A stretch of DNA of 64,000 nt from Camelus ferus (lineage: Eukaryota). Location of the stretch: assembly GCF_009834535.1 (NCBI RefSeq), contig NC_045696.1:62001-126000 (forward strand). The letters are read 5' to 3'. The position numbers and the translations under genes were made by a program. Of this stretch, positions 6,339-64,000 are shown piece by piece (positions within the stretch are counted from its first letter, which is position 1; each line of letters opens with the position of its first letter). The notes beneath the pieces were generated by a model. The model was given only the letters and a program-made list of their open reading frames with translations. It was not told the DNA's origin and did not search any database.

Positions 6339-6340
6339 GT

Positions 6341-6926: not shown

Positions 6927-9900
6927 TGGGCTTTCATTCTGGGAACAGAACAGATGTGGAAAATTTCCTTCCTCTGAATTATTGGCAATGCAGGGATTTT
7001 AATATTTGTCCTGTAACCTACCTACATGTTATGGAGGAACATCTGTCCAACTCAAATTTAGACAACTCCATTAAGCTAACCAAATATTGCTTCTTTGGAA
7101 AGATATGAGGAATGTTGAAATATTGGTGAAGAAACCCTCTTCAGCATTAGTCAAAGTGCAATTAATTCTCTGGACCTTCCCCATTTTAAGGAATGAGATA
7201 TGTGGAAATTTTGCTTCCTCTCTTTTTGGGGACACATCAAATTTCAGTTTGAGGGACTAGCCTATCTGCATATTTGGAAAGGCATTTGTTCATAATCAAA
7301 TCATTAATTCACCTCTCATGAACATTTTTCTAGGAAGAATAGCAAGAAAGTGGAAATATTTGATTTTGAAATCTCTCCTACAGATGAGATACATCATATA
7401 ACACATCTTAATTCTGGAGAAGGAACGTTTGTGGGAAATTCATTCAATCTGCTTGGTTGGAAGTCAATTAATTTTTGCATTTGGGAAACACTTCTGTTTC
7501 AATGTTCTACAAGGCCATCACATCAACGCCACATGGAATCACGACTTTCTCGAATGTTGAATCATCTTTAGGAAACAAAAAGAAAATGTTAAAAGATATT
7601 TGTAGGAAAGCCTCTATTACCTTAGGTTACATGCACAGAATCTTGAAGACATGTTCTTTTCTGGAAATCTAATGGGTAAGGATAAGATCTTTGTCAGGCC
7701 TTATTTGAAGGAACGGTTTCTGTGTCTGGGGAAGAAGCCTATATCCATGTTCTGAAAGATGTTCACTCAAACTTGTCTTGAGATATCAAATTTAACCCAC
7801 CTTGAAAATGTTTCTAGAGAGCAAACCAAGAAAAGTGATAAATGGGGAGAATAACTTATGCCAGGAAAGCTATTGTGCCGAATCTTATACAAAGATGCAA
7901 CCCTGGGAATCAAACAGAAAAAGTTAAGCTACATAAAGTGCTTCATTGGGAGTATGGAGTTCTGTGGTTTCCAAAAGTAGTCTATGTGCCTGTTTTGGAT
8001 GGCTTTCACTCCAACTCATCTTAGGAAAACCAACAGCTGCTCACTTGATGATGCTTGTAGGATGCATACTAAGAAAGGTGAAAAGATTACTGCTTGAAAG
8101 GGTCTTTTAATTTAGGCCAGATGCACCCAAGTGTTGACAAACATTTCATCCTGGGAACATAGTGAATGCAGAAAATGTCCTCATCTATATGGGGTAATAG
8201 AGTTTTTGTGTTTGGGAAGTAGGCCTAACTGTAAATTCCTAGAGGCCTTTTCATATACCCGCATTAAGGCCACTCACTTAAACTCTTATTTGATTGTCTT
8301 TTGGAAAGAAAACCAGAAAGTTGGAAATATTGCAGATAGAATGTCTCTTGAGCATTAGACCAGCTGCATTGCATCTTGCTGATATTTTTTAGGAGTGGAA
8401 AGGTTGTGTGTGGGAAAATTCCTTCATCTGCCTTGTTGTGATCACAAAGGTTGTGGGATTGAGAAACCATCCTATTTGTGTGTTCTGAATGGCCTGAATT
8501 AAAACTCTCTGTGAAGTTATGAACTTTCCCTCACTGAAGCTCTCTACTGAGCAAACATCGTGATGAAAAGAACTACTTGGACAGGTTGAAGAAATTTATG
8601 TTACATGCACCCAGTCTTGGAAACATTTTTCCATCATGGAAACTAACACATTTGGATGTTTTCCCACTTCTGCCTTTTTTCAAAGACATGGATTTTGTTT
8701 TTGGCATATAGGCCTATCTCCATATTCTGTAAGATTTCACTGCAACTTGACTTTAGTTTCTCAGCTTCTCCAATCTTGAAATCCCACTAGGTAGCATTAA
8801 GTCCAAGGTGAAAAAAAATAATGGGAGAATAACTCCTCAATATTATGGTCTATGAAACATCTTATAAAATTGGATAAATCTGTGACACACTGGGATTTGG
8901 AAGTTGACTTCATCCAAACTTTCTGGAGCACAGAGCTTTGCATGTGGGCTAGAACTCTCTGTTCATACTCTGAAAGGCCTTCACTCAATCTCATTTTTAG
9001 AACACCAAATTCCCCAGACTCTATTAAGTCCATAGAAAGCATACAAGGAAATGTGCAAAGTAGGTTGTTAGAAAGTCTCTTGATATTCATGCTAGCTGCA
9101 AACAAAATATTCACATAGGTCTAGTAACAGAATTGCTGTGGAAAATTTCCTTCCTCTGAATTGTTGGAAATTCAGGGATTTTTACTTGGCCTATAGCCTA
9201 CCTAACATATTTTGAGGAAACACCTTGCCAACTCATATTTAAACACCTCATTTCAGCTAACCTAATATTCCCTTTTTGGAAAGATATGAGGAATGTTGAA
9301 ATACTGGTTCAGAGAAATCCTCTTCAGCATTAGTGTAGGTGCAATTCATCTTCTGGACCTTCCCCATTCTGAGGAACAAGATGTGTGGAAATTTTCCTTC
9401 CTCTGCCTTCTAGGGAACACATCAATTTCCAGTTGGAGAGACTAGCCTCTCTGCATATTCTGAAAGCCTTTGTTCATCATCCAACATAGATCATTTACTT
9501 CAGCTCTCATGAACATTTCTCTAGGAAGAATAGCAAGAAAGAAGAATGATTTGAGTTTGTAATCTCTCCTAAACATGACGTTGTATTCAATATATCATAT
9601 AACACTTCTCAATTCTGGGGAAGAAATGTTTGTGGGTAATTCACTCCATCTGCCTGATTGGAAATCAAATACATTTTGCATTTGGGCATCTCTAGTTCAA
9701 ATTTCCAAAAGGCCTTCACATCAACTTCACATGGAATCACAGTTTTCTTTTATGTAGAACTCTCTATATGAGAAAACAAAAAAAAATGTGGAAAGACATT
9801 GGTAGGAAAGTCTCTACTAACTATGTCTACATTCACAAAATCTGGATGACATGTTATTTCTGGAAATTGAATGGGTAAGGATAATTTCTTTGTTGTGCCT

Positions 9901-12900
9901 TCTTTGGAAGTAATGGTTCCTGTGTCTGGGAAAGAAGACTATATGTAGGTTCTGAAGGAAGTTCACTCAAATTCGCCTTGAGATGTCGAATTTAACAAAT
10001 CTTGAAAAAGTTTCTGAAGAGCATGCCAAGAAAGGTGATAAAAGTGGGAGAATATCTCTTTCCAGGAAGACTATTGTGCCAAATCTTAGTCATCACACCC
10101 TGGGAATCAAGTGGAAAATGTATATCTACTTCCCGAGCCTCTTTGGGAGCACAGATTTCTGTGGTTTCCAAAATTAGTCTATATACCTGTTCTGAAGGGC
10201 TTTCACTCAAACTCATCTTAGGAACACCAATAGCCTTTCACTTGACACTGCCATTAGGAAGTATACTAATGAAGGTGAAAAGAGTATTGTTTGAATGGGA
10301 CTTCTAATTTAGGCCAGGTGCACTCAAACTATGACAAGCGTTTCATCCTGGGAACATGAGAGTGAAAAATCTTCTTCTTCTGCATTATAGGGATCACAAA
10401 GTTTTGTGTTTGTGAAGAAAGCCTAATAGCAAGTTTTGATAGGCCTTTTCACACATTCACATTAAGGCCACTCACTTCATCTATTCTTTGATTATCTTTT
10501 GGAAAGACAGCTGGAAATTTGTAAACATTGCCAATATAATGTCTCTTGAGCATTAGGTTATCTACACTGCACCTTGTAGATATTTTTCATTAAAGGAAAT
10601 ATTTTATGTGGGAATATAGTTTGTCTGCTTTCCTGTGATTACAAAGGTTGTGGGATTGAGAAACTATCCTATCTCTAAGTTCTGAATACCCTGCTTTAAA
10701 TCTCCCTCTTAAATCATGAATTTCCCCTTGTTGAATCTCTATCAAGCAAACTTCAAAATGGTGTAAAGAACTACTTAGACAAGATGAAGCACTTTGTGTT
10801 AGATGTACCCAGTCTTGTAAACATGTTCCAATCTTGGAATCTAACACATTTGGATGCTTTCCCCATTGTGTCTTTTTTCAAAGACATGGCTTTTGTCTTT
10901 GGAATACAAGCCTATCACCATGTTCCCTAATATTTTATTGCAACTTGATTTTAGATCCTGAAATTCACCCATCTCAAATGCCTTCTATGTAGCATGAAAT
11001 CAAAAGTGAAAAAAATAATGTGATAATAACTCCTCAATATTATGGTCTTTTTGTCTTATACAATTGGATTAACCTGGGACACACTTGGGAGTAAGCTGAA
11101 TTCATCCAATGTTTCAGTAGCACAGAACTTTGTGTGTGGGTGAGAAGTCTCTGTGCATAGCCTGAAAGGCCCTCACTCAAACTCACCTTTAGAACACCAA
11201 CTTCCCTTCATTTTACTTTGTCCATAGAAAGAATACAAGGAAAGATGGAAAGCTGTTGCTAGAAAGTCTCTTCCAATTCACAGTTAGGTGCACACAAAAC
11301 CTTGACATAGGTTTCATTCTGAGAACAGAATGACTATGGAAAATACCCTTCCTCTGTATTGTTGGGAATGCAAGGATTTTGATTTTCAGAGGGTAACAAA
11401 TCTGCATACTATGAGGGAATTTCTGGCCAACTCACATTTAGACAATTCATTTCAGACAACCTAAAATTGCCTCCTTGTGAAGATCAGAGGAATTTTGATA
11501 ACTTGGTGGATAGTAAATCTCTTCAGCATTAGTCTAGGTGTAAATCAACTTGTAGATCTCCATTCTCAGGGAGAACTTGCATGAAAAGTTTCCTTCCTCT
11601 GCCTTGTTGAGGACACATTGACTTTCAGTTAGGGTGACTAGCATGTCTGCATATTTCTAAAGGCCTTTGTTCATAATCACCCATAGACAATTCACTTTAT
11701 TGCTCCTGAATCTTTTTGTAAGAAGAATATCAAGAAAGTAGATAAATTTGATTCTAGAAACTCTCTTAGCATGACATTAGGTTCAAAATATCACATTTCC
11801 CTTCTATTTCCAGGGTATGAATATGTGTAGGAAATTCACTCCATCTGCTTGATTGGACTCACATAGTTATTATATTAGAGAAACAGCCTTATTTCAAAGT
11901 TCTCAAAAGCCTTCATTTCTACTCCCCAAGAAATCAGTGGATTTCTCCTATGTTCAACTCTTTTTGTGAAACAAATAACTGTGAAAACACCATTGTAGGA
12001 ATGTCTCCACCACCTAAGTCTACATGCATGAAATCTTGAACATATGTTCCATCCTGGGAATCTAATGGGTAATGATAATTCTTTATTGTGCTTTCCTCTT
12101 AAGAAATGTTTTATTGGGAAACAAGCTTATTTCCAGGTTCTGAAAGAAGTTCAGTCGAACTTGTCTTGAGATATCTATATTCACCCACCTAGAAAATGTT
12201 ACTGGAAAGCATGCCAGAAAAGGTGATAAAACTGGGAGTATATCTCTTCTGAGAGAGGCTATGTGTTCTGAATCTTATACAAACATACGACCCTGAGTAT
12301 CAAACAGAAAAAGTATAGCACCTTCACGTACCTCATTGGGAGCACAGAATTCTATGGTTTTTGAAATTAGTCTATGTGCCTGTTCTGAATGGCTTTCATT
12401 CAAGCTCATCTTAGGAACACCAACAGCCCCTCACTTTCACTCTTTGTAGGAAGCATACTAAGGAAAGTGAGAACAGTACTGTTTACATGGGTTTTCTAAT
12501 TTAGGCCAGATATACCCAAAGGTTGACAGACATTTCATCCTGGGAACACAATGAGTGTGGAAAATTTCCTTCTTCTGCATTGTAGGGATCACATAGATTT
12601 TGTGTTTGGAAAGCAAGCCCAGCTGCAATTTCTGATAGGCCTTCTCACACACTCACATGAAGACCACTCAGTTCATCTATTCTTTGTCTTTTGTAAAGAC
12701 AACTGGAAAGTTGAAAACACTGCTGATAGAAACTCTCTTGAGCATTAGGCTATCTGCATTTTATCTTGTAGATATTTTTCATTAAAGGAAAGTTTCTGTG
12801 TTGGAAATTTCTTCCTCTGCTTTGCTGGGCTCACAAAAGCTGTGGGATTGAAAAACCATCTTATCCCTATGTTCTAAGTGGCCTGCATTAAAACACTTGT

Positions 12901-14234
12901 TTATAACATAAATTTCCCTTCATTGAAACTCTTTATCGAGCAAATTTTGAAATGGTGAAAAGAACTTCTCTGACAAGATGAAGCACGTTGTGTTGGATGA
13001 ACCTAGTCTGCTAAACTTTTCCCAATCTTGGAATCCAGCACATTTGGAATTTTTCCCTCTTCTGCCTTTTTTTAAAGACATGGCTCTTGTCTTTGGGAAA
13101 CAAGCCTATCTCTATGCTCTGTAAGACATTCTCTACAATTTGACTTTTTATATTTAACTTCACCTATGCTGAAGTGTCTTCTACATACATGCAGTCAAAG
13201 GTGAAATGAAACATGGTGAGTATATCTTCTCAATATAATGCTGTGTGCTTTATCATATACAATTGGATAACCCTCAGACACACGGGTGGGAAATTGACTT
13301 CATTCAAACTTTCAGGAGCAAATAGTTTTGCATGTTGGGGAGAAATCTCTGTGTATACTCTGAAAGCCCTTCACTCATAGTCACCATTAGAACATCAATT
13401 TCCCTTCATTCTACACTGTCCATAGGAAGCATCCTAGGAAAGTTGCAAAGAATGTTCTTAGAAATTGTCTTCCAATTCACACTAAGTGCACAAAAATCCT
13501 ACACAGAGGTTTCATTCTGGGAACAGGATGACTGGAAAATTTCCTTCCTCTGCATTTTTGAGAATGCATGGATTTTGATTTTCAGAGGGTAGCCTAAATA
13601 CTTATTATGAAATAACTTCTGTCCAACTCTCATTTAGATAACTTATTAGAGATAACCTAAAATTTTCTCTGGAAATATAAAAGGAATGTTTTAAAATTGG
13701 TGGGTAGAAACCCTCTTCAGCATTAGTCTATGTACACTTCACCTTCTACATATTCTCCATTCCTTGGAAGAAAATGTGTGGAAATATTCCTTCCACTGCC
13801 TTCTTGGGGACACATCAATTTTCAGTTTGCAATACAAGCCAATCTGCATAATCTTAAAGGCCTTTTTTCAAAATCACCCATAGATTATCCACTACACCAC
13901 TCTTGAATCTTTTTCTAGGAAAATACAAATAAAGTAGAAAGGTGTGATTTTCTAAACTCTCTTAAGCATGTGGTTAAGTTCAACATATCACATGTCCTTC
14001 CTCTATTCTAGGGAATGAAACTTTGTGGGAAATTCACTTGATCTGCTTGTTTGGAATCACATAGTTTTGCATTTGGGAAACAGCCCTATTTCAATGTTCT
14101 GAAAAGCCTTTTCTTCCACTCCCAATGAAATCACAGATTTCATATATGTTGAACTCTCCTTATGAAACAAACTAAAAGATGAAAAGACACTTGCAGGAAA
14201 GTATATGCCACATTAGGCTCTATGCACGGAATCT
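6927..14234 (+). repeat. Satellite array 1: ~3.3 diverged tandem copies of a ~2.19 kb monomer (strand label arbitrary)
   Basis: The marker GGAAAAT(T/A)(T/C)CCTTCCTCTG with the same flanks recurs at ~6958, 9140, 11338 and 13534 (spacings ~2182, 2198, 2196). Colinear similarity runs through each copy. Confidence 0.93.
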
Positions 14235-14698
14235 ATCTAAAGCTGCCTCCAAGAAATGAAGTCCTCAGAAATTCTGCCAAATAAACATAATTATCAATTT
14301 TAGGATGTGCTTTTTCTTCTTTTGTTCAGAGTTTTATTGACCAGGAAGTAACCCAGAGCAGGCTTCTCTCCCTTGCCTGAAATCTAGAAGGCAACAGAGA
14401 CTCATACCAGTAGAGTCCTTTGGGACCATCAGGCAACTGAGAGTCTTGGGAAAGTGGTAGAGGCAAATCCTAACACCATACCTGTCCCTATAGGGAAAGA
14501 TCTGCTCATTTTAATTAACAAATATTTTCTGTGATGGACACAAATAAGAATTGGCCACCCAAGGACCTCAGCACCCATGGTGGTCCTTACACTACCAGAA
14601 GGAGAACCCAAGACACTTAACAGATAATGAAAGAAATCTAGTTTAAAAAGCTATACAAATTAAAGTCACAAGGAGCCCACTGGCCCAACATGTAATTT

Positions 14699-15192
14699 TA
14701 TTACCAAAACAAATTTGGATCCATCTGTTCATGCACAGTAAAGATAATCTACTGACACCAGGCTGTGGTGAAGGATAGGGAAATGTTTATTTTAAAGGTC
14801 TCAGTACAAGGAGAATGGGTGGCTTGTGCTCTAAACTCCAAACTCATGATTGGGTTTCAGTAAAACATTTCTAGAGGCCAGATGAAGGAAGTGTGTCACA
14901 GGGTCTGTGATCAGCTCCTAAACAATTCTCTGATTGGTTGATGGTTAGGTAACATGGCAGTGTCACTTGGGTTAAGATTAATCCTCAATCTTCTGGTAGG
15001 CCAGGGAGCTACATGCTTATGGTCATCATATAGTTAAGTTCTTCCTTTTGCTGGGAATTTTATCATCTGGAAATCTACAAAGGAAATGTGCATCAGATAC
15101 AATTATCTAGGTACTTCAAAGAGGAGCTAAACAGAGGATTGGGGGAGGGGTCTTTCCAGAGAAGTCTCCATAGGGTCCTGCTCTCTTAAACA
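14699..15192 (-). mobile_element. ERV1-type solo LTR, antisense
   Basis: Minus-strand AATAAA-like signal (TTTATT ~14786-14791) and CCAAT-type motif (GATTGGTTG ~14932). Its left end is the approximate reverse complement of the U5 of the LTR ending at 20132. No clear target-site duplication. Confidence 0.65.
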
Positions 15193-16190
15193 CCCCAGGT
15201 TTAATTAGTTAAACCTGGAAAAAAATGGGTATGGGGAGAGGTCTTTTTAGAATCAAGTGTGTTAACCTATTTCAACTGTTATATAAACTAAAAAGTTCTA
15301 CATTAAAATACCTGATTCATGACTAAGTGTTAAAGTTATGAGATCTCTGATTTTATAAAAAAAAAAAAAGGAATTTGTAAATGAGCTCTATTCAACTGTC
15401 TTAAAGGAAAGTAAATTCTGATCAATCAAATGCCCAAATGATTTTCAGTTTCATCTGATCTGGGTCATATTTAGTATTAAATTAAGATCTAGTATTAAAG
15501 CTACTTTAAGCCTATTAATTTAATGAATACAGATGTGTTTAGCATCACATATGCATCAACTATAAATTTTTTATAGCTATGTTTACTGAAATTCTGTAAG
15601 TTCATATTTTATCTGCTTCAAAATTTGTCAACAAGGAAAAAGTTAACTTGGCATGATAATATTGTCATAAGGAATGAAATAGAAATAACTCAGATACAAT
15701 CTTTTAGGTAAACTCTTTGGAAATAATTATGTTTTATCTATGTCTATCTAAATAGTTTCTCCAGATTTTTGGTAACTTGAAACCTAGGGTTACACTAAAT
15801 TAAGTTAAATGATGTGAATTAATTGAAGGTCTCTATCATTTTTAAATAAGATAAAACACTGGAAATTGGATTGTTAGACAAGTTTAAATTTAAATATTTT
15901 TGCATGTTTCTGAATGAAAATTTAAAGATGTTTATGTTTATTGGATACATGCTTTGCAATATATTGAGGAAATAAATTTTACTGTGAGAAAGTATAATTT
16001 TTGAAGACTATAGAATATGCAGGTTAGTTTGCCAATTACAAAATACTAGTATGACAAAAAGTTCACAATTGCTTGCTACTTCTTTTTTGCTACAGATTAA
16101 AGATTTTAAAGGTTAAAAATGATAATATATATGTATTTCAAGCTACTAGAAAAAATAAGGAAATATTCCAGTATGTAAAGAAAGTAGGAT

Positions 16191-16760
16191 ACATCCCCAA
16201 TATTCATAACAGCATTATTTACAATAGCCAAGACATAGAAGCAACCTAAATGCCCATGGACAGATAAATGGACAAAGAAGTTGATATATGCAACACACAC
16301 ACACACACATTACCACATATATAATGGAATATTAACCAAGCATAGAAAGAATAAAATAATGCCATTTGCAGCAATGTGGCTGGACTTAGAGATCATCATA
16401 CTAAGTGAAATTAGTCAAAGAAAGGCAAATATCATATGATATCACTTATGTGTGGATTCTAGAAAAAGACACAGATACATCTATCTAGAAAACAGCAATA
16501 GTCTCACATACATAGAAAACAAACTTATGGTTTCCAAAGAGGGGAAGGGATGTAGAGGAATATATTTAGAATTTGGGGTTCATAGATACACACTGCTATA
16601 TATAAAATAGATAAACAACAAGGACCTACCATATGGCACAGAGAGAAATATTCAATATCTCACAATATCCTATAATTGAAAAGAATCTGGAAAGGAACAT
16701 ATATACATATATGTCTGTATGTATTATGTATGTATGTATGTATTTATAGATTTGCTGTAA
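16191..16760 (+). mobile_element. LINE-1 3' fragment (end of ORF2 and 3' UTR, cetartiodactyl type)
   Basis: Hallmark L1 strings CAGCATTATTTACAATAGCCAAGACA, GCAACCTAAATGCCCA, ATGCCATTTGCAGCAA and AAAATAGATAAACAACAAGGACCTAC. Internal (CA)n at ~16293-16309. Confidence 0.9.
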
Positions 16761-17908
16761 GTATAAAGAATGAAGATATTTTTCTAAGGGAAAATAAATT
16801 TTGTCCTACAGCTGATTGATTCTGAGCAGAAAATAAAGTAAGGGACAAACGATGTGGATAGGGAAATTTGTGGAAATCTTGCATAAAGGGAAGCCTGAGA
16901 AATTTTGTGCATATTCAAGACTGGCTAAGATTAGATTAAATTTAACTAAATAAATAATTTTGTTATTAAAATAACCTTTCACAAGACTGGAGTTTGCTTT
17001 TCTCTATTAAGACCACAAAGTTTTCTTGGAGTATTGTCTTGTTTTACATCAAATTCTAAATAAATATTTTTGACCTCTGGCTAATTCTGGGGGCATTTCA
17101 AAGGGCCCCTGAAGCATCTCAGAAAGAAATATTAAAATAATTAGGATTCCTTGGTGTATTAAATGACTTACTTATGAGTACGTGTCATTAACATAGATGT
17201 CCTAGAAATTATGACCTTCCTGGAATTTAAATATATCCTAGTATAATTGTTATCAGTCATAATTCTAGTTATTATCTTGAAATGTTACCTGTCACAGTAA
17301 CTTGGCTAAGCTTCTTTATCAACTAATTATAATCAGATCATAAATCATGACTTTTTAAGACATTTGTCTTTTATAGACAGTTATTGTTTCTCTCTGATTT
17401 TTTTCAAAAATGCTTCATCTTCAGGAAGATTATAAAACTTTACTGACAAGTGCCTATTTCTGACAACTTTCAGATTATATCACTGAACTGGGTAAGATAT
17501 TGAAGAATTCTAATAGAATCCCTTACTGTCTGATAAAATTGTTTAGCAGATGTTTGACTCTCCATCAAAGTGAAGGGAAAATTCCCCAATGAAGTTGTCA
17601 CAGAGTATATCTCATGACATGTACGCCTGCTTGCTTTAAGTCCACTGTTTGAGGCACCTGTACAATATTTGTGTAAAGACTTGGTGTAACTGATAAAACA
17701 TATAACCTATAAAATATTTCCCCTTTAACATACTTCTGAGCTTATTCATTGTTACTGATTAGATTTCCCTTAAGTTGCATAACTAGGCAGACATATATAT
17801 ATATATGAGGCCTCTCACTAAGGGCTTAGGGTAGGCAGCAACAACCCTGGCATCAACAGACATATCATCAATCCTTTCTATAAAAGAATTACAATCAAAA
17901 GGGGAAAA

Positions 17909-18365
17909 TGATGTAGGAAAATTTCATATATTGATCTATGAGAAAGTCTTCCAGCTTATATATGTTTTAACATGAACTTTAGGCTAAGCCAAACAGCATG
18001 CCTGTGGTCTTTTAGACATACATTGTACATCATCTTTAACCATGAAAGAAAAGGAATGTATTTTTTAAAAGTCAAAATGGAGTAACTGTGAGTCAGCTTT
18101 CAAACTGGAGCCATGTGATTACTATGGATATTGTTTCAGACAAGTTCCTGAATTACTGAGAATTTGAATTTTCTGAACTGTAGCTGACTCAAGGACATCA
18201 CCAAGCAGTCTGAAAACAATGCCTGATAGCACCTCCCACTACAATGTTATGATCTGTTATGGTCTCAGGGTCTCTTCTTGGAACAATTCTCTTAGTTTAG
18301 GAAGAGTAGTGATAAACAAGATAGCTTAAAGCCATAGCCTCCAGCAGAAGGCTCCAGATACTCTA
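17909..18365 (+). mobile_element. Probable 3' LTR (partial) of the ERV1-like element
   Basis: Begins TG directly after the polypurine tract. The right boundary is uncertain. Confidence 0.5.
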
Positions 18366-19166: not shown

Positions 19167-19223
<57 letters not shown>

Positions 19224-19433: not shown

Positions 19434-19469
<36 letters not shown>

Positions 19470-23251: not shown

Positions 23252-23300
<49 letters not shown>

Positions 23301-51500: not shown

Positions 51501-54500
51501 TGTAGTCCTTTCAGCAAGTGCACGTTTGCTCGATCAACCTGTTCTGTGAGGTGAACATTGGGATTAAACTTGGGGTTTGAATGCATGGGCTCAATCACAT
51601 GTAAGACAAAGTGATTTTTCTCAATGCCTCAATATTTGTGATCCAAACAATTCAGAAGAAAATTCCCCACACAATCTTTCCTGTAGTAACTGAAACCAAC
51701 AAGATGAATTGCACAACACCTAGAGACACTCTGCCGCCAATGTTTACAACTTCATGGTAAATTGACTAAATTCAACTGAAGTAGAGATGAAGGGTGCTAT
51801 CTCTCTGTGAATTTGTGAGAAATCTTATCATAGCTCGTATATACGCTTAATACCCAACAACAGCAGTACTCCTTTATCATGACAAAACAGGTGAGGGATA
51901 CTGTCCTCAAACATTGTATTCCCATCATGTGTAAAGTGTCAAGGTTTGGGTTGATGTGAGCGAAATTACAAGACCCATTCAAATAAATTTTGCAAATTCA
52001 TTGGGATGCTCATAATAAACAATGAAAAGTGAAGGGCTGTGGCTAATCCAAAGAGGAGCTGGTGCACAGGTACTTAAGGGAAGGAATATAAAATAACTTC
52101 AGATAACGTGGAAATTACTGCTCATGAAATGTCCTGTGTATTTGCTGAAATATTTGGCATTGATTCCCAGGATAAGATGAATACAAAGATTCAGAAAAAT
52201 AACCTGGGTAGGAAGAGATCTTCTCCCACATCTCTTAATATTGTTGTCCTGCTCTACGAGAACAGTTTCAAACTGGGTTCAATTTGACATCTCAAGTTCA
52301 GGTTGAGAGAAACATTTTCAGAACCAAGACATAGGCTTCTTTCCCGTTCACAGTACCCATATTTCCCAGAATGGCACAAGACTGTAATCATCCTTACCAG
52401 TTTCATTTCATGCAGTGAACATGTTGCAAGGTCCTGTGCAAGAATCTAAATGTCGTAGAGACACTCCAACAAATGGATTTCCGCATTCAGTCTCTCTTTA
52501 AATAAGTTAGTTAAACATAAGAGAAAAACTGTGATTCCTTCTGGAATAGGAGCCAAGATCGTGTGGAATATTGACACACAGCCATTTCCTGCCTGCCAAA
52601 GTTCTGTGACTTGCAAACAAAGCACTGATTTGAATTTCCTTCAAAAATGCATTTTCCAAAATTGAGATGTGTGAAAGCACTCATTGAAGAAAAGCACTCC
52701 TTTAGGACAGATTACCCTCCAAGCTATCTTCTTTCTTAGTATACTTCTTACAAAAATCTTCGAAATGGGTAATGTAAAATATCAACATTGGATGATGAAC
52801 ATATGCTTCTGAATGTGCAAATGGGCTCACATCCATCCTTGAAAACCAATGTTTCCCCAATAACTAAGTGCAAAGAAAACTATCCCATGTCGTATTCCTC
52901 CAAACAGGGAAGTTACAGAAGATGAATTTCACCTGAACTAACGCTGAAGAATGTTCCTCTGCACAAAATACACAGCATTCCTGATAGATTTTGAATGGTC
53001 AGCTGTTGACTCAGCTGGGATGAGGTGTCTTAATGTCACTTTGCCAGATGAGCGTTCAAAACATGGAGAGACAGCTCAGGCCAAACAGGAAAATCCCAGA
53101 TTTTACCATCAAATCCCAAGAAGGGAGTGTACCTCAGGTTGTCTGTTTCTGAAATGAAACACAGGGAAGAATTTGATTCAAGCAGACAAGAATTGCAAGA
53201 GGATTACTAGCGGTAGTTTTTGCTTCTTCCCTTGGATGCCTTCTGTGGATATGGCAAGAACTGGAGAAGCTGGGGTACTGAGGATGAACTTGTTAAATGG
53301 CCTTTCCAAGTAATCACAGGCAGTAATTAACAGTGTGCTGTGCTCTATCAAAAACTTGGATGACGACAACTCAGCCAGCTGCAGATTGTTTCCCACGAGT
53401 GAAATGTTCTCAAACCTGTGTAACACAGGGCGACCTATCTAGGAGTAAGTCTTACAAGAATGTTTGTCTCGCCATAACTTCATGCCAGCAAGAAGGCTTT
53501 TCAAGATGGCTGAAGTTCAGGAAAGAAACTCAGGATGCAGTGAAATCTTACGGAACAAGAAGAGAGGCTCATATGCCAAAGACAAAGTCTCACGTTTTAA
53601 AACTGCCAGAAGACCGAAAAATTCCTCATGTGCGTAGTTCTAAGGAGGGAACAGTTTTCAAGACTGGGTGAAGCTAACACAGTGAGCTTCATACTGTACA
53701 AGTAGTCCTTCCAGCGTGTGAAAATATGTTCGATCGAGACATTCAGTTGGGGGAACTTGCAGAACTCACAGTAGGTTTTAATGCATGGCCTCACTCACAA
53801 GTTAGATATAGGATGGGTACTCAATCGCACTACTTACATGATCCCAAAAAGGCAGAAGGAGGTTTCAGACATAAACTGTTTTGTCTACTGACAAGCACCT
53901 AAAAGCTGCATTTCACAGCCCCTCCTTTTCAAGAAACATTTTGTCAACAAATTTTCCAACTTAGAAGGTGCTGTTCCTAATGGAAAATAAATAGGATATT
54001 AAAGGAATGGACTCAAGGTGAGTGTGTGAGAAAGCCTATCAGAACTTGGATATTGGATTGCTTCTCCAACACAAAATTTCTCTTATTCCTACAATGCAGA
54101 AGAAGGAAATTTTTTCACATTCATTGCACTCCCAAGATGCGTCTCTTAAGAACATGAGCGTTGATCTTATAGAAATCAGGAAACCCAATCAAACAATCCT
54201 CTTTACACTTTCCTTAGAACGGGTTGTAACAGCTGGGTCTGCTCAGGGGATGTCATTGTATCTATGATGAGTTTCGGGCAAGGACCTTCAGGACAGGAAC
54301 CCAGGCTACATAGGGAAACAGTGGAAACTCAGGGATCCATTGAACCTGTGATGCTGCTTCATCTATACCATTTCATTCCTAGAGTGGGAGGATTGCCTGG
54401 GATTCGGCACAAGAACCTGTGTAAAGAGAGATCATCTCTCAATTTCTCACATCTATTGGCATGCTGTTCAGGAACATTTTCAAGCTGGGTTCATTTTGAA

Positions 54501-57500
54501 CCCTTGAAACCAACTGGAGAGAAATAACTTCAGAAACGGTATATAGATTTCTTTCCAAGTCATGGAAACCGTTTCTTCCCATGAAGGCATGAGGCAGAAA
54601 ACATCCTTACCCGTTTCATTTTGAGAAGGGTACATATTGCAAGATTCCATGCATGTAGAACAAGGCCACAAACACATTTCTGCAAATGGCTTGCCACAGT
54701 GTATCTCAATTATGTAGAGCAGCTCACCATTTGTGAAAATCCTGAATTGTAGTGCATTAGGGGACACTGTTTTGTGTAACACAATAATAGATCCGTTTCA
54801 TAAATGACTAAATACTCTGTCTTGCTAAGAATAGATGGGTCGAATTTATTTCAAACGTGAGTTCTGCAGCTTGTGAATCGTTACAGGTTTTATTGAACCG
54901 AAGCACAAACTGTTCTAGAGAGTACCCTCAAAGCTGACTTCTTTTTGCTATTCTTCCTATAGAAAATTTAATGAGAGCTGAAGTAAATTATCTGAGTTTG
55001 AGGAAGTACAGAGGCCTATAACATTGTGCAGATGGGCTGAATCCGGTCCTTGTAAATCAATGTGTCCCCAAAAATGCAGTGCAGTGAACACTGGCCCACG
55101 TCATATTCCTCCAAATAGAGATGTTTCTGAAGAAGTATTTTGCCTTAAAATCCACTGAAGTTGGTTTAATACACCAAAAAATCAGCTTTCCTTATTCAAT
55201 TTCTGCCAGCTGCATTTGGCTGAGCTGAAATGCTCTTCTTAACATCAACTTCCCAGATGTATCTTCATAACATGCAGGCAACATCATGCCATACATGAAA
55301 ATCACGGATTTTATCATCAATACCCAATAAGGGATTTTGCCTTGTCCCTTCTCTTCTCCTAAAGAACCACATGACAAACATATTTGTGCAGATGATATGG
55401 CTAAAGATGACTATTTAAAGAGCACCCTTTACAAATTTCCTTAAATTCACTCTGTGGAATGTGAAGATAAAGGAGAAGCTCATGTATTAAGGACAAACTT
55501 GCACAGAAACCTCTCACATTATGGATGGACCGTTCTCTCGAATAGGTAAAAGACTGCACTTTCAACTTCTGGGAAAAAGTCAAACTAACATTTCCCCAAG
55601 AGTATTCCAGATTTTCAAGATTTTAAAATCTGAGAGGCACAGGCTCTCTTATTTAAAAGGTATACTCCTACGAATATTTATACGCTGTAAACTATGCAAA
55701 TGGAAATCATTTCAGAAAATAATGAAGTGGAGGAAAGAAACGCAGTTTGTAGTGAAATCTGAGAGAATATGGTGAAAGGGCCGTGTGCCAAAAGGAGAAG
55801 ACACATATTCAAAAAGTGGCAGAAGACTTAAAATTTCTTCAATTGTTTGATCCTAAGCATGGAAATGATGGTCTTTGGGAGATTTACTACTTTGGAATTA
55901 GTGGCAAATTTAAGACTGGGTGCATCAAACATGAAGTGCTTTCTCCTTTCCACGTAGTCCTTTCACCAAGTGGACGTTTGCTCGATCGACCTGTTCTATG
56001 AAGTGAACATTGGGATTACCCTGGTGGTTTGAATGCATGGCCTCAATCACATGTAAGACATAGGGTTTACTCTTAATGCCTCAAACCTGGTGATCCCAAC
56101 AAGGCAGAAGGAAGTTTCCCACACAATATTTCCTGTAGTAAATAAAACCTAAAGAAGCATTGCACAGCACCTAGAGACACTCTGTCGGCAATGTTTCCAA
56201 CTTCGCCGTCAATTGCCTAAATTCAACTGAAGTAGAGATGAAGGGAACTATCTCGCTGTGAGTGTGTGAGAAAGCCTATCACAGCTCGTAGTTATGCTTG
56301 GTTCCCAACAACAAAATACTCATTTATCATGACAGCGCAGGTGAGGTATATTGTAAACACTCATTTTATTCCCACTATGTGTAAGGTCTGAAGGTTTGGG
56401 TTGATGTGAGCGAAATTACAAGACCCATTCAAATAATCTTCTTTGCACCTTCATTCAGATGCTTCCAGTAAGCAGTGTCATGTGAGGGGCTGTGGCCGAT
56501 CCAAAGAGTAGCTGGTGCCCAGGTCGTTCAAGCAGGAACATACAATAATTTCGGATATGGTGGAAATTAATACTCATGAAGTTTCCCGAGTATTTTCTGA
56601 ACATTTTGCCATTGATTCCCAGGTTATGACGAATACAAAGATTCGGCATAATAAGCTGGGTAGGAAGAGATCTTTTCCCAATTCTGCTACCGTAGGTTTC
56701 CTGCTCTTCGGGAACACATTCAAACTGGGTTCAATTTGAAATCTGAAGTTCAGGTTGAGAGAAACATTTTTAGAACCGAGTCATAGGCTTATTTCCCTTT
56801 CAGAGTAACCATTTTCCCCAGAACCGCACAAGAATGAAATCATCAATACCCGATTCATTTAATGCAGTGAATGTGTTGCAAGGTCCCATGCATGAAGCTA
56901 AATATCGTAGAGACACCCTTACAAATGGTTTTCTGCATTCATTCTCTCTTTCAATAAGTTAGTACAACATAAGGGAAAAACTGATTCCTTCTGGAATAGG
57001 TGACAGTATCTTTTGGAACACTGACACACAGCCGTTTCCTGACTACCAAAGTTCTGTGACTTGCAAATAAACTGTCGGTGTGAATTCCCTTCAAACATGT
57101 GTTTTCCAAAACTGAGATGTGTTAAAGCACTGATTGAAGAAAAGCACTCATTTAGGAGACATTACCCTCCAAGCTGTCTTCTTTCTTATTATACTTCCTA
57201 CAGAAATCTTCACAACGGGTTATGTATAAAGTCTACAATGGATGATGAATGTTTGCTTCCAAACGTGCAAATGGGCTTACTTCCACCCTTGAAAACCAAA
57301 GTGTTCCTAAAAACCAAGTGCAATGAAAACTTGCCCATGATGTATTCATCCAAACATGGAAGTTACTGAAGATGATTTTCACCTGATCTAATGCTGAAGA
57401 ATGTTTCTCTGCACAAAACAGTCAGCATTCCTGATACATTTTGAATGAGCTGCTGATGACTCAGATGGGATGAGGTGTCTTAATGTCACTTTGCAAGATG

Positions 57501-60500
57501 TGCCTTCAAAACATGTAGGGACAGCTCAGGCCAAACATGAAAATCCCAGATTTTGCCTTCAAATCCCAAGAAGGTAGTGTATTTCAGGTTGTCTGTTTCT
57601 GAAATGAAAAACAGGGAAGCATTTGTTTCAAGTGGACAAGAATTGCAAGAGGATTGCTTGTGGCATTCATTGTTTCTTCACTTGGATATCTTCTGTGGAC
57701 ACGGCAAGTACTGGAGAAGCTGGTTACTGAGGCTGAACTTGTGAAATGGCCTTTCCAAGTACTCACAGGCAGTAATTGACAGTGTGCTGTGTTCTACCAA
57801 AATCGTGAATCATGTCAACTCACTCGGGTGCAGATTGATTCCCAAGAATGAAATGTTCTAAAACCTGTGGAACACAGGTCGACTTATCTAGCAGTTAGTC
57901 TCACAAGAATGTTTGACTCGCCATAACTTCATGCCAGCTAGAAGGCTTTTCAAGATGGCTGAATTTGAGGAAAGAAAGTCAGGAAGCAGTGAAATCTTAC
58001 AGAACATGAAGAGAGGCTCATATGCCAAAGACAAATTATTCACGTTTTAAAACTGCCAGAAGACTGAAATATTCCCCTTGTGCTTAGTTCCAAGATGAGA
58101 ATAGTTTTCCAAGACTGGGTGAAGCTAACACAGTGAGCTTCATTCTGTCCAAGTATTCCTTCCAGCGTGTGAAAATATGGTCGATTGAGACATTCAGTTG
58201 GGAGAACTTGCCAATTTCATAGTGGGATTTAATGCATGGCCTCACTCATGACCTAGAGATAGGACGGGTCCTCAATCACACTACTTACATGATCCCAACA
58301 AGGCAGAAGGAGGTTTCACACATACACTTTTTTGTCTAGTGACAAGCACCTAAAAGATGCATTTCATAGCCCCTCATTTTCAAGAGACATTCTGTCAACA
58401 AATTTTGCATCTTAGCAGGTGATGAACCTAATTTCACATAAATAGGAGATGAAACGAATGGACTCAATGTGAGTGTGTGAGAAAGCCTATCAGAACTTGG
58501 ATATTAGATGGCTTCCCCAACACCAAATTTCTCTTATTCCTACAATGCCAAAGAAGGAATTTTTTTCACATTCATTTTATTCCCAAGTTGCATCACTTAT
58601 GAACGTTAGGGTTGATCTTATAGAAATTAGAATACCCTTTCAAACAATCCTCTTTCTACCTTGCTTAGAATGGTTTGTAGCACCTTGGTCTGCTGGGGGG
58701 CTGTCAGTGTATATATTATGAGTTTGGTTCAAGGACCTTCAGGACAGGAACCCAGGCTACTTAGGGAAACCGTGGAAACTCAGGGCTCCCTTGAACCTGT
58801 GATGTTGCTTCATTTATTCCTTTCCATTCCTAGAGTGGAATGATTGACTGAGTTTCAGCCTAAGAAGATGCATAAAGAGAGTTCTCCCAATTTTCTCACT
58901 TCTCTTGTCATGCTGTTCGGAAACATTTTCAAGCTGGTTTCTATGTGACACCTCAAAACAAATTTGAGAGGAATTATTTCAGAACAAGTATATAGATTTC
59001 TTTCCAAATCACAGAAATCATTTGTCCCCATGATGGCACGAGGCAGAAATCATCTTTACCTGTTTCATATTGATAAGGGAACTTGTTGCAAGATTTCATG
59101 CATGAAGACAAAAGTCACAAACCCATTCCTGCAAAAGGATTGTCAGTGTATCTCAATTATGTAGAGCAGTTCAACATTTGTGAAAACCCTGATACCTAGT
59201 ACATTAGGGGACAAATTTTTGTGGAACTCTAAAATAGATCCGTTTCATAAATGAATAAATACTGTGTCTTGCTAGGAATAGATGGGGCGAATTTTCTTCA
59301 AACGTGAGTTCTACAAATTGTGAATCATTACAGGATTTATTGAACTGAAGCACGAATCATTTAAGAGACTGTACCCTCAAAGCTGTCTTCTTTTTGCTAT
59401 TCTTCCCATAGAATACTTCATGAGATCTGAAGTAAATTATCTGAGTTCATGGAAGTACAGGGACCAATAAGAATGTGCAGATGGGCTGAACCCCATCCCT
59501 GAAAATCAATGTGTCCCCCAAAATGCAGTGCAATGAACACTGGCCCATGTCATATTCCTCCAAATAGGGATGTTTCTGTAGATGAATTTTGCCTAAAGAT
59601 CCTCTGATGATGGTTTAATGCACCAAAAAATCAGCTTTCCTTACAGCTTTCATGAGAGCTGCATTTGGTTGAGCTGAAATGCTCTTCTTAACATCACCTT
59701 CCCAGATGTACCTTCATAACATGCAGGCAACCTCATGCCATACATGGAAATCACGGTTTTTATCATCAATTCCCAATAAGGAATTTTTCCTAGTCCCTTC
59801 TGTTCTCCTAAAGAACCACCTGACAAACATAGTTGTGCAGATGATATGGCTAAAGATGACTATGTAAAGAGCATTGTTCACACATTTCCTTAAATTCACT
59901 CTGTGGAATGTGAAGATCAAGGAGAAGCTCATGTATTAAGGACAAACTTGAACAGAAACTTCTCAGATTACAGATGGTCTGTTCTCCCTATTAGGGAAAA
60001 CTCAGCACTTTCAAATTCTGGGAAAATGTGAAATAAACATCCCCCAAGTGTATTCAAGATTTTCAGGATTTCAAGTTCTGATGGACACAGACTCTCCTAT
60101 CTATAATATATTTTCACATGAATCTTCATATGCTCTCAACTATGCAAAAGAGAGTGATTTCAGAATATCCTGAAGTGGAGGATGGAAAGTCAGTTTGTAG
60201 TGAAATCTGACAGAAAATGTTGACAGGACTGTGTGCCAGAAGGAGAAGCCACATATTCGAAAAGTGGCAGAAGACTTAAAACTTCTTCAATTGTTTGATC
60301 CTAAGGAGGGAAATGAAGCTCTGTGGGAGATTAACTACTTTGGAATTAGTGGCAAATGTAAGTCTGTGTGCATCTAACATGAAGTGCTTCCTCCTGTCCA
60401 CATAGTCCTTTCACCAATTAGACGTTTGTTCAATCGAGCTGTACTGTGAGTTGAACAATAGGATTAAAATGGGGGATGGAATGCATGGCCTCAATCACAT

Positions 60501-63500
60501 GTAAGACATAGGGTATTTTCTCAATGCCTCAAAATTGGTGATCCTAATATGGCAAAAGGATGTTTCCCACACAATCTATCCTGTAGTAACTAAAACCAAC
60601 AAGATGTATTGCACAGCACCTAGAGACACTCTGTCGGCAATCTTTCCAACTTCGCGATCTATTGCATAAATTCAACCGAAGTAGAGATGAAGGGAGCTAT
60701 CTCGCTGTGAGTGTGTGAGAAAGCCTATCACAGATCATAGTAATGCATGTTTCCCAACAACAGAAATACTCCTTTATCACGACAGCGCAGGTGAGGGATA
60801 TTGTTCACACACACTGAATTTCCTATATGGGTAAAGTGTCAAGATTTGGGTTGATGTGAGCAAAATTACAAGACCCATTCAAATAATCTTCTTTGCACCT
60901 TCATTCAGATGCTTCCAGTAAGTCTTGTCAAGTGAGGGGCTGTGGCTGATGCAAAGATGAGCTGGTGCCCAGGTCGTTCAGTGCAGAAACATACAATAAT
61001 TTCAGATACGGTGGAAATCAGTGCTCATAAAGTGGCCCACGAATCTTCTGAAGTTTTTGACATTGATTCCCAGGATACGACGAATTCTAAGATTCGGAGC
61101 AATAAGCTGGGTAGGAAGAGATCTTCTCCCACATCTGCAACTGTTGTTGTCCTGCTCTCTGGGAATGGTTTCAGCCTGGGTTCAATTTGACATCTCAAGA
61201 TCAGGTTGAGAGAAACATTTTGAGAACCGAGACATAGGTTTTTTCCCATATACTGTACCCATATTTCACAGAATGGCACAAGACTGAAATCATCCTTATC
61301 CATTTCATTTCATGCAGTGAACGTGTTGCAATTTCCCGTGTATGAAGCTAAATGTCATAGAGACACTGCTACAAATGGCTTTCTGCATTCACTCTCAATT
61401 TCAATAAGTTAGTTCAACATTAGAAAAAAACTGTGATTCCTTCGGGAATAGGAGACAAATCTTGTGGAACACTGAAACACAGTCGTTCCCTGACTGCCAA
61501 AATTCTGTGACTTGCAAACAAATCTTTGGTGTGAATTTCCTTCAAATATGCGTTTTCCAAAATTGAGATATTTTAAAGCATTCATTGAAGAAAAGCACTC
61601 ATTTAGGAGAGATTACCGTCCAAGCTGTCTTTTTCTTAATATTCTTCCTACAGAAATCTTCATAATGCTTGATGTAAATTGCCTACATTGGATGATGAAT
61701 GCATGCTTCTCAACATGCAAATGGTCTCGTTTCCAAATTTGAAAACCAATGTGTCCCCAGAAAAGAAGCGCAAAGAAAACTGGCCCATGTCATTTTCCTC
61801 CAAACAGGGAAGTTACAGAAGATGAATTTCACATGACCTAACTCTAAAAATTGTTTCTCTTCACAAAACACTCATCATTCCTGGTAGATTTTGAATGAGC
61901 TGCTGTCAAATTTGCTGGGGTGAGTTGACTTAAATCATTTTGATTGATGTGCTTTCAAAACATGGAGGGACATTCCAGGCCAAATATGGAAAGCCCAGAT
62001 TTTGCCTTCAAATCCCAAGAAGGGAGTGGACTTCAGGTTGTCTGTTTCCAAAATGAAACACAGGGAAACATTTGTTTCAAGTGGACATGAATTGCAGTAG
62101 GATTGCTAGCAGTATTCTTTGCTTCTTCCCTTGGATGCCTTCTGTGGACATGGCAAGTTCTGGAAAAGCTGGGGTACTGAGGCTGAACTTGTGAAATGGC
62201 CTATCCAAGTACTCACAGGCAGTAATTGACAGTGCACTGTGCTCTACCAAAATCGTGGATCACGTCAACTCACACAGCTGCAGATTGTTTCCCAAGAATG
62301 AAAGGTTCTATGTCCTGTGGAAAACAGGTCGACTTATCTAGGTGTTAGTCTCACAAGAATGTTTTTCTCGCCATAAATTCATGCCAGCAAGAAGGCTTTT
62401 CAAGATGGCTGAATTTGAGGAAAAATGTCAGGAAGCAGTGAAATCTTACAGAACATGAAGAGAGGCTCTTACGCCAAAGACAAAAGCCTCAAGTTTTAAA
62501 ACTGCCAGAAGACCGAAAATTTCCTCATGTGCTTATTTGAAAGATGGAACAGTTTTCCAAGACTGGGTGAAGCTAACACAGTTAGCTTCATACTGTCCAA
62601 TAGTCCTTCCAGCGTGTGAAAATATGCTCGATTGAGGCTTTCAGTGGGGGGAAATTGCAGATTTCACAGTGGGTTCAAATGCATGGCCTCACTCACCAGC
62701 TAGAGATAGGACGGGTCCTCAATCACACTATTTACATGATCACAAAAGGCAGATGGAGGCTTCACACATACACTTTTTTCTCTAGTGACAAGTACCTAAA
62801 AGCTGCATTTCACAGCCCCTCATTTTCAAGAGACATTCTGTCAACAAATTTTCCAACTTAGCAGGTGCCATTCCTAATGGCACATAATTAGGAGATGAAA
62901 GGAATAAATTCAATGTGAGTGTGGGAGAAAGCCTATCAGCAGTTGGATATTGGATGGCTTCCCCAACACCAAATTTCTCTTATTCCTACAATGTAGTAGA
63001 AGGAAATTTATTCACATTTATTGTACTCCCATCATGGGTCTCCTATGAACGTTAGGGATGATATTATCGAAATTAGAAGACCCATTCAAACAATCCTCTT
63101 TCCACCTTGCTTAGAATGGTTTGTAACACCTTGGTCTGCTGGGGTGCTGTCAGTGTATCTATGATGAGTTTGAGCCAAGGAACTTCAGGACAGGAACCCA
63201 GGCTACTTAGAGAAACCGTGGAAAATCAAGGCTCTTTCATGTGCGATTTTTCTTCATCTATTCCGTTCCAGTCCTAGAGTGGAAAGATTGTATTAAGTTT
63301 GGCAGAAGAAGCTGCATAAAGAGAGTTCTTCTCCCAATTGTCTCACTTCTCTTTGCACGCTGTTTTGGAAAACTTTCAAGCTGGATAATATGTGACACAT
63401 CAAACCAAAGGGGAGCGATATTATTTCAGAAACATTATACAGATTTCTTTCCAAATCATAGTATCCGTTTTTCCCCATAATGGCATTAGGCAGAAATCTT

Positions 63501-64000
63501 CCTTACCTGTTTCATTTTGAAAAGGGAATCTGTTGCAAGATTCCATGCATGTAGACCAAAGTCACAAACACATTCCTGCAAGTAGCTTATCACAGTCTAT
63601 CTCAATTATGAAGAGCAGTTCAACAATTGTGAAAACCCTGATTCCTAGTGCATTAGGGGACAAGGTTTTGTGCAACACTGAAATAGATACATTTCAAAAA
63701 TGACTAAATATTCTATCTTGCTTAGAATTGATGGGGCGAAGTTTCTTCAAACTTGAGTTCTACAAACTGTGAATCGTTACAGGATTTATTGAACCGAAGC
63801 ATGAATCGTTCAAGAGAGAGTACCCTCAAAGCTGTCTTCTTTGTGCTATTCTTCCTATAGAAAATTTCATGAGAGCTGAAGTACAATATCTGAGTTCAAG
63901 GAACTACATAAGCTTATAAGAATGTGCAGATGGGCTGACTCCCGTCCCTGTAAATCAATGTGTCCCCAAAAATGCAGTGTAATTAACACTGGCCCATGTC
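24538..64000 (-). repeat. Satellite array 2: ~17.8 tandem ~2.22 kb monomers arranged as an A/B dimer of ~4.44 kb, reverse complement of array 1
   Basis: A-type marker (TTTGTGCTATTCTTC...TTCATGAGAGCTGAAGTAAATTATCTG) at 26131, 30541, 34986, 41650, 46054, 50496, 54948, 59397, 63846. B-type marker (CTTAGTATTCTTCCTACAGAAATCTTCATAACG) at ~28354, 32779, 37235, 39436, 43842, 48290, 52739, 57189, 61639. The reverse complement of the marker matches array 1 at ~9488-9533. Confidence 0.96.

What the first reader, a model, noticed from the sequence alone, without database searches (positions are those of the whole stretch)
6927..64000. Three-tier higher-order satellite: ~245 bp unit x9 = ~2.2 kb monomer, x2 = ~4.44 kb dimer
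Seen: within a monomer a degenerate motif (GGAAAATTTCCTTC-TCTGCC...AGCCTATCT-CAT-TTCTGAAAGG) recurs at ~6958, 7203, 7435, 7680, 7920, 8168, 8411, 8655, 8900 and 9140, giving nine steps of ~243 bp. The same spacing is seen in array 2 (~29166, 29396, 29637, 29888, 30131...). Monomers in array 2 alternate A/B, and same-type copies are visibly more alike than neighbours. Known: nested higher-order repeats are the architecture of primate alpha satellite. Inference: an 18-mer higher-order repeat built by successive amplification rounds, possibly centromeric or pericentromeric. I do not recognise the family. This is the best candidate for an undescribed system in the window.
Basis: partly seen in the sequence, partly recalled or inferred. 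Interest (0 to 1): 0.75.

Follow-up and report, generated by a model that had tools for sequence, protein, structure and literature searches.

The report
Fossil nested layers of camelid satellite
The nested repeat is real: it is an old, worn relative of the main 248-base satellite of camels and llamas, built up in steps of 1, 4, 9 and 18 units, and it looks like leftover DNA beside a centromere rather than a working centromere or a new repeat family.

Summary
Observation confirmed, with corrections. Array 1 (6911-14234) holds 3.3 copies of a 9-unit, 2.2-kb repeat. Array 2 (24538-64000, opposite strand, beyond a 100-N gap) holds 18 monomers of types A and B forming a 4.44-kb 18-mer. Only array 2 has the dimer tier, and its alternation slips once, at a B/A recombinant monomer. 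A fourth tier was missed: the 9-mer is one unit plus a duplicated tetramer (permutation p 0.009).

The monomer is not an unknown family. The 248-column unit consensus matches the published llama 248-nt candidate centromere repeat at 46 of 68 ungapped positions (hand alignment; random maximum 39). That paper found no higher-order structure.

Repeat copies are only 73-88% alike and related DNA seems to total under 1 Mb, so this is a dead layer, not an active centromere core. Array 1 lies about three times closer to the ancestral 9-mer than array 2, and changes are transversion-rich. It works like the defunct alpha-satellite layers beside primate centromeres, but keeps a higher-order structure. 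New variant of a known kind.

The parts
6911..14234 (+). Array 1: 3.3 copies of the 2.2-kb 9-mer (type C; monomers start at about 6927, 9109, 11307, 13505), 30 units of about 244 bp, no A/B dimer. Closest to the ancestral 9-mer.
   Evidence: left end abuts an ERV LTR; the monomer profile extends to 14260
24538..64000 (-). Array 2: 18 monomers (first and last partial), 9 type A (about 2205 bp), 8 type B (about 2245 bp), 1 recombinant; about 160 units; 4.44-kb A+B dimer. Runs off the window end. Strand is relative to array 1.
24538..28780 (-). Most diverged A/B dimer (m01, m02): 72-75% to other copies of its type, lowest CpG content of array 2
37661..39861 (-). Recombinant monomer m07: B-type head (90.7% to m09), A-type tail (88.0% to m05); switch at about 38971-39003; shifts the A/B phase by one monomer
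   Evidence: 374 diagnostic columns; split identities
7209..9146 (+). Example of the hidden tier: units U2-U5 and U6-U9 are two copies of an older tetramer of about 980 bp; U1 is an extra unit of the U2/U6 class
   Evidence: the top four star-model residuals of 36 pairs are U4-U8, U5-U9, U2-U6, U3-U7, permutation p 0.009; lag peaks 970 and 1220 exceed 240, 480 and 730 in array 1
24438..24537 (.). 100-N scaffold gap: the distance and relative orientation of the two arrays are not proven by this sequence
14235..24437 (.). Spacer of LTR-like, L1-like and simple-repeat DNA; not satellite
   Evidence: no unit or monomer hits beyond 14260; simple repeats; LTR and L1 labels read by eye from recall
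1..6910 (-). Decayed betaretrovirus-like endogenous provirus whose 5' LTR (about 6341-6910) abuts array 1; neighbour, not part of the satellite
   Evidence: Pfam Gag_p10, Gag_p24, zf-CCHC_5, RVP, RVT_1, HERV-K_REC on short open frames; sequence

Best explanation
The arrays are dead layers of the camelid 248-bp satellite family. History read from the sequence: a monomer of about 245-248 bp diversified into a tetramer; the tetramer was duplicated and gained one more unit, giving the 2.2-kb 9-mer. Array 1 is a short stretch of that 9-mer that stopped being homogenised early. In another part of the array the 9-mer lineage kept turning over, two neighbouring copies drifted apart into A and B (B gained 38 bp in unit 7), and the A+B pair was amplified as a 4.44-kb 18-mer by local unequal exchange. 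One out-of-register exchange made the recombinant monomer. Homogenisation then stopped there too, and transposons entered at the edges. SHOWN: all four tiers, the recombinant, decay of identity with distance, the threefold longer path of A/B from the root. SHOWN BY HAND ONLY: homology with the llama monomer. INFERRED: the host is a camelid; the arrays flank a centromere; they were once part of the functional centromere and are now passive pericentromeric heterochromatin; the faster, transversion-rich change reflects error-prone copying.
For: Tiers. Homology: llama repeat 248 nt, 45% GC, 2.9% of the genome, higher-order structure 'not found' (PMC4053949 supplement); my consensus has 248 columns; 46 of 68 ungapped matches, then colinear blocks of 17/26 and 12/18 (by hand); best 68-nt block in 5000 random 248-mers: mean 32.7, maximum 39. 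One 15-nt llama motif: 10 hits, 3.74 expected, 0 of 100 shuffles reach 10; 8 of 10 in the arrays, all 8 on the expected strand, 5 of 8 in exact unit register. Dead state: same-type identity 79.7% (A) and 79.6% (B), falling from 82% for neighbours to 73% at the far end; a provirus abuts array 1. Local unequal exchange. Rate asymmetry: root-to-tip 0.155-0.162 for array 1 against 0.48-0.54 for A and B, in both tetramer blocks. Model in primates: PMC2729386 abstract and passages.
Against: The llama comparison was counted by hand, and the 15-nt motif was chosen after seeing the match. The llama repeat is only a candidate centromere repeat (most abundant tandem repeat); I saw no CENP-A data for camelids. 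No genome was held, so position and neighbours come from unchecked notes. Array 2 has no transposon insertion in 39.5 kb (monomer lengths 2171-2253), unlike typical dead layers, and old alpha layers are described as free of higher-order repeats. Identity and CpG rise towards the right, away from the chromosome start implied by the notes, which fits only if the contig beyond the gap is flipped or the history is more complex. The root hangs on a long stem (0.41) and only 3 array-1 monomers. Thousands of contigs at 90-99% likeness suggest some blocks were copied recently, so the family is not wholly inert.
Confidence: 0.68

Rival explanations
1. Same ancestry, but never centromeric: a patch of the 248-bp family that was displaced early and grew as a local macrosatellite by unequal exchange and segmental duplication.
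For: Modest abundance: summed contig depth averages about 406 in X1, against single contigs at 6-38, an order of 10-40 copies per position (the tool warns this is no copy number). No CENP-B box. Short contigs, with 720 at 99%+ and 1271 at 95-99% of 7058 laid, fit duplicated blocks.
Confidence: 0.22
2. An active centromeric higher-order repeat carrying the kinetochore of this chromosome.
For: Nested architecture; kinship with the most abundant llama repeat; no insertions in array 2; CpG better kept in array 2 (observed/expected 0.27-0.28 against 0.08 elsewhere).
Against: The best same-type neighbours are only 84-88% alike; low abundance; 0 exact CENP-B boxes on either strand (pattern recalled).
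Confidence: 0.05
3. A decayed coding or RNA array, such as zinc-finger repeats (3 x 84 = 252 bp) or hairpin RNA genes, that only looks like a satellite.
For: Unit length is near 252; a C.K.[FY]-like word is over-represented in translations of array 2 (58 against 12.7 in shuffles).
Against: No 84 or 168 bp lag; 1 linker-like word in 18 consensus frames, 26-44 stops per frame; the word count is a few motifs repeated in every monomer; no Rfam match; mean folding z 0.13 to -0.56; no sub-period in the unit.
Confidence: 0.02
4. The arrangement is an assembly artefact.
For: A 100-N gap separates the arrays; no listed contig bridges the gap or the recombinant junction.
Against: Copies 60-90% alike cannot arise by collapse or false duplication; 17 of 24 listed runs hold 0.81-0.85 of the words of array 1; contigs of two organism labels cover 30 of 30 bins of array 2; both halves of the recombinant differ by 9-12% from their closest copies. 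Only the join and the inversion stay in doubt.
Confidence: 0.03

Closest known systems
Lama glama 248-nt candidate centromere tandem repeat (Melters et al. 2013, PMC4053949, supplementary files 1 and 3)
   Same: Monomer length 248; colinear sequence similarity, 46 of 68 in the best ungapped block (hand alignment; null).
   Different: The published repeat is a simple monomer, 45% GC, 2.9% of the genome, higher-order structure 'not found'. Here units are 38-49% alike, 37-40% GC, arranged as 4-, 9- and 18-mers, and far rarer.
Defunct alpha-satellite layers flanking human centromeres (Shepelev et al. 2009, PMC2729386)
   Same: Old relatives of the living satellite, 71-85% alike within a layer, homogenisation stopped, transposons inserted, divergence 2-3 times above the normal rate.
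   Different: Unrelated 171-bp monomer; those layers are described as monomeric or dimeric, while this one keeps a four-tier structure. Layer symmetry and sharing between chromosomes are untested here.
Active primate alpha-satellite higher-order repeats
   Same: Diverged monomers nested in a larger unit whose copies are more alike than its parts.
   Different: Active repeats are nearly identical and very abundant; these are 73-88% alike, with no CENP-B box.
Alpaca satellite catalogue VpaSat01-20 (PMC13751797)
   Same: Camelid tandem repeats with kilobase units, many near centromeres; the paper mentions uncharacterised 'diffuse' arrays at centromeric regions.
   Different: No listed unit is 2.2 or 4.4 kb and about 60% AT; no resemblance by eye in the first 400 nt of the consensus sequences shown; the paper left centromeric satellites aside and has no occurrence of 'higher-order'.

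Membership tests
Camelid 248-bp satellite (llama candidate centromere repeat) | Monomer of about 248 bp | tested here: met
   consensus 248 columns; lags 242-249
Camelid 248-bp satellite (llama candidate centromere repeat) | Sequence homology with the published monomer | tested here: met
   hand alignment with the sequence: 46/68 ungapped, plus 17/26 and 12/18 colinear; null maximum 39 of 68 in 5000 trials; motif scan 10 against 3.74. No machine alignment of the whole monomer.
Camelid 248-bp satellite (llama candidate centromere repeat) | Simple, homogeneous, very abundant tandem monomer (2.9% of the genome) | tested here: not met
   units of different position 38-49% alike; order of 10-40 related copies per position. 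So an old relative, not the modern array.
Camelid 248-bp satellite (llama candidate centromere repeat) | Centromeric location or CENP-A binding | not testable with these tools
   no genome held; not shown for the llama repeat either
Active alpha-type higher-order repeat | Multimer copies more alike than neighbouring monomers | tested here: met
   same position and type 80%, A against B 61%, different position 38%
Active alpha-type higher-order repeat | Nearly identical repeat copies | tested here: not met
   72-88% between same-type monomers
Active alpha-type higher-order repeat | CENP-B boxes | tested here: not met
   0 exact matches, 5 with one mismatch on both strands of 64 kb (pattern recalled)
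Dead pericentromeric satellite layer (Shepelev type) | Within-array identity of about 70-85%, homogenisation stopped | tested here: met
   73-79% in array 1, mean 80% in array 2
Dead pericentromeric satellite layer (Shepelev type) | Transposon insertions | tested here: inconclusive
   a provirus and LTR/L1 DNA bound array 1; none inside 39.5 kb of array 2
Dead pericentromeric satellite layer (Shepelev type) | Flanks a younger array of the same family, with an age gradient and symmetry | tested here: inconclusive
   gradient inside array 2; younger neighbour only from an unchecked note; symmetry not testable
Dead pericentromeric satellite layer (Shepelev type) | Free of higher-order repeats | tested here: not met
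   4-, 9- and 18-mer tiers
Alpaca VpaSat catalogue | Match to a listed consensus | tested here: inconclusive
   only the first 400 nt of each consensus were visible, no resemblance by eye; 1 of 26 primers scanned, 0 hits
Zinc-finger-derived satellite | 84-bp period and C2H2 linker motifs | tested here: not met

The most novel reading that the evidence does not exclude
Camelids keep a layered fossil record of former centromeres like that of primates, but with whole higher-order repeats preserved: a frozen ancestral 9-mer beside an 18-mer descendant that changed three times as much, with a transversion-rich spectrum. That would be an internal, same-locus measure of satellite hypermutation outside primates, and shared layers would date camelid centromere turnover.
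Probability: 0.3. Interest if true: 0.65.

Novelty: new variant of a known kind. Interest (0 to 1): 0.42.

Why it matters
Camelid centromeric satellites are barely characterised: the 2026 alpaca survey left them aside, and the 2013 survey found no higher-order structure in the llama repeat. These arrays show that the family once formed 4-, 9- and 18-unit repeats, and they give a worked sequence history that complete camelid assemblies can test. Shepelev et al. proposed that layer analysis could extend to non-primate satellites; this is a ready candidate. The threefold rate difference between two arrays of one ancestry bears on whether satellites mutate faster while they are being amplified. 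No new biological function is indicated.

Tried and rejected
No whole genome was held, so no genome-wide mapping. Rfam: 0 matches. tRNA genes: 0. Tandem Repeats Finder sees only simple repeats, not the 245-bp unit. Zinc-finger origin, hairpin-RNA array, 10-bp AA/TT phasing and a shorter sub-repeat: rejected; 3 of 108 folding windows had z below -3, all in the array-1 consensus, not followed up. Pfam on 5 open frames inside the arrays: one sub-threshold hit. Metagenome scans for relatives in other mammals: 0 hits with one pattern; 48 hits with another, none extending beyond the pattern under the monomer profile, so chance. Earlier-findings look-ups by sequence, relatives and near: nothing. Sequencing runs: no RNA holder listed; the two runs guessed to be RNA gave 92 and 65 short contigs, which says nothing on expression. 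Strict A/B parity labelling failed and was replaced after the recombinant was found. A block-level identity test of the tetramer was uninformative (57-59% for all offsets, shuffled 55%), and the nine-consensus tree supports the tetramer pairs only weakly (80-88%, U3-U7 unresolved); the claim rests on alignment-score residuals and lag peaks. Deer satellite III and mouse MurSatRep1 were considered from recall; search listings only, no sequence comparison. The VicPac3.1 paper has no occurrence of 'satellite'.

Full report
Layout. The window is mammalian repeat DNA, 31-41% GC and CpG-poor, with one 100-N gap at 24438-24537. Self-comparison shows two arrays of one family on opposite strands, 6911-14234 and 24538 to the window end. 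To the left lies a decayed betaretrovirus-like provirus on the minus strand (Pfam gag, protease, reverse transcriptase and Rec fragments), whose LTR ends at 6910 against array 1. Between the arrays lie 10 kb of LTR-like, L1-like and simple-repeat DNA (labels from recall).

The three reported tiers are real. Lag spectra peak at multiples of about 244 and at 2190 and 4390 in array 1, and at 240, 2200/2240 and 4400/4440 in array 2, with no peak in the left control. Of 190 units cut from 22 monomers, every nearest neighbour has the same position in the monomer, and 9 of 9 positions are clades. Mean identities are 38-49% between positions, 61% between A and B at one position, and 80% within A or B.

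Two corrections and one addition. First, array 1 has no dimer; its monomers are 73-79% alike and about 61% to both A and B. Second, alternation in array 2 slips once. With parity labels no position split into A and B. Monomer 37661-39861 is B-like up to about 38971-39003 and A-like after it (374 diagnostic columns); its head is 90.7% like the B copy two places on, and its tail 88.0% like the A copy two places back. This is the product expected of out-of-register unequal exchange. With its 9 units dropped, 9 of 9 positions split into A and B, and 181 of 181 neighbours agree. Third, the 9-mer hides a tetramer: the four largest residuals among 36 position pairs are U4-U8, U5-U9, U2-U6 and U3-U7, with U1-U6 next (p 0.009), and lags 970 and 1220 exceed 240, 480 and 730 in array 1. 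The tree of nine consensuses supports these pairs only weakly, and the signal is weaker in B alone.

What family it is. That led me to the supplement of PMC4053949, which lists the llama candidate centromere repeat: 248 nt, 45% GC, 2.9% of the genome, higher-order structure 'not found'. My class-balanced unit consensus has 248 columns. Aligned by hand to the reverse complement of the llama sequence it matches at 46 of 68 positions without gaps (counted twice, once per strand), and colinear blocks of 17/26 and 12/18 follow with offsets of 2-3. In 5000 random 248-mers of the same GC, over all offsets and both strands, the best 68-nt block reached 39 at most. One 15-nt llama motif, chosen after the fact, gives 10 hits against 3.74 expected; 8 are in the arrays on the expected strand, 5 of them in exact register and 3 at an internal look-alike 24 bases upstream. 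I rate the homology as very likely (about 0.95), but there is no machine alignment of the whole monomer. The llama repeat is itself only assumed to be centromeric.

State of the arrays. Same-type identity falls with distance, from 82% to 73%, as local exchange followed by long decay would give. Rooted on the paralogous tetramer, array 1 monomers lie 0.155-0.162 changes per site from the ancestral 9-mer, and A and B lie 0.48-0.54 (19 of 22 monomers used, long stem, only 3 from array 1). Private changes are transversion-rich: Ts/Tv 0.66 in A (n 417), 0.72 in B (n 448) and 1.0 in array 1 (n 541), against 53/44 in four short transposon pairs of the window, a weak control; about 2 is usual in mammals (recalled). 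PMC2729386 reports two- to threefold excess divergence in dead alpha layers and suggests error-prone synthesis. With its primate rates (0.4-0.6% per million years in arrays, 0.2% normal), within-type distances of 0.24-0.28 give roughly 20-35 or 60-70 million years. This is a rough inference; either range is near or before the camel/llama split of 11-25 million years.

Abundance and reality in other samples. 17 of 24 listed runs hold 0.81-0.85 of the sampled words of array 1, under two organism labels. On 24538-44500 at 80% likeness, 7058 and 7380 short contigs were laid from X1 and X14, covering 30 of 30 bins. Summed depth in X1 averages about 406, against single contigs at 6-38. The tool warns that this is no copy number; as an order of magnitude it suggests 10-40 related copies per position, 0.2-0.8 Mb, against about 94 Mb for the llama monomer (2.9% of 3.25 Gb). 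Many contigs at 90-99% likeness point to closer copies outside the window. No listed piece bridges the gap or the recombinant junction.

Mechanism and rivals. Most likely these are passive remains of successive amplification rounds of the camelid satellite, displaced beside the centromere (0.68). The main rival is a displaced patch that grew locally and was never centromeric (0.22). An active centromere (0.05), a decayed coding or RNA array (0.02) and an artefact (0.03) are unlikely. Against the best reading: array 2 has no insertions, its youngest part points away from the chromosome start implied by the notes, and position could not be checked. Notes placing SON 10 Mb and KRTAP genes 14 Mb beyond the window (unchecked) suggest the start of the chromosome that carries human 21 and 3 homology.

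Literature seen. PMC13751797: parts 1-4 of 8 of the text and the spreadsheet supplement, with consensus cells cut at 400 characters; the slide supplement could not be read and may bear on whether this array was seen. PMC4053949: passages and supplement hits. PMC2729386: abstract and passages. PMC6598621 and PMC13477059: passages. Ten searches showed no description of a 2.2- or 4.4-kb higher-order repeat of this family. The library lacks most subscription papers; Vidal-Rioja 1987/1994 and the VicPac4 paper were not read, and Dfam, Repbase and GenBank were not available.

Verdict. A real and well-resolved structure, a new variant of a known kind: a fossil higher-order layer of a published camelid satellite, already noticed once in this scan. 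Interest 0.42.

Noticed in passing
window 1-6910 (-): Decayed betaretrovirus-like provirus with a Rec-like fragment; its LTR (about 6341-6910) abuts the satellite, and the primer-binding-site-like stretch at 6321-6338 resembles the tRNA-Trp type rather than tRNA-Lys (comparison from recall).
   Followed up: partly
window 24538-64000: Private changes in array 2 are transversion-rich (Ts/Tv 0.66-0.72; T>A outnumbers T>C); array 1 gives 1.0.
   Followed up: partly
window 24538-64000: CpG observed/expected rises along array 2 (0.15, 0.22, 0.27, 0.28) against 0.08 in array 1, the spacer and the provirus.
   Followed up: no
unit 7 of all type-B monomers, e.g. near 27075: A 38-bp insertion marks all 8 B monomers and explains the 2205/2245 length difference; origin not traced.
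   Followed up: partly
window 26539-27029: Contigs of two runs join these places on opposite strands, hinting at an inversion somewhere in the family.
   Followed up: no
window 27838-34712: Near-identical contigs have about three times the depth of diverged ones (38 against 6-25 in X1; 49-57 against 7-19 in X14) and are short, which may mean this block has a few very recent copies.
   Followed up: no
unit 4 of the monomer: By eye, a 15-nt stretch resembles the reverse complement of the horse 221-nt repeat printed in the same supplement; the flanks do not obviously agree; probably chance, untested.
   Followed up: no
window 18852-19517: About 670 bp of purine-rich simple repeats (GAG/GAA and AAAG) inside LTR-like DNA; they cause the long spurious open frames there.
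   Followed up: no
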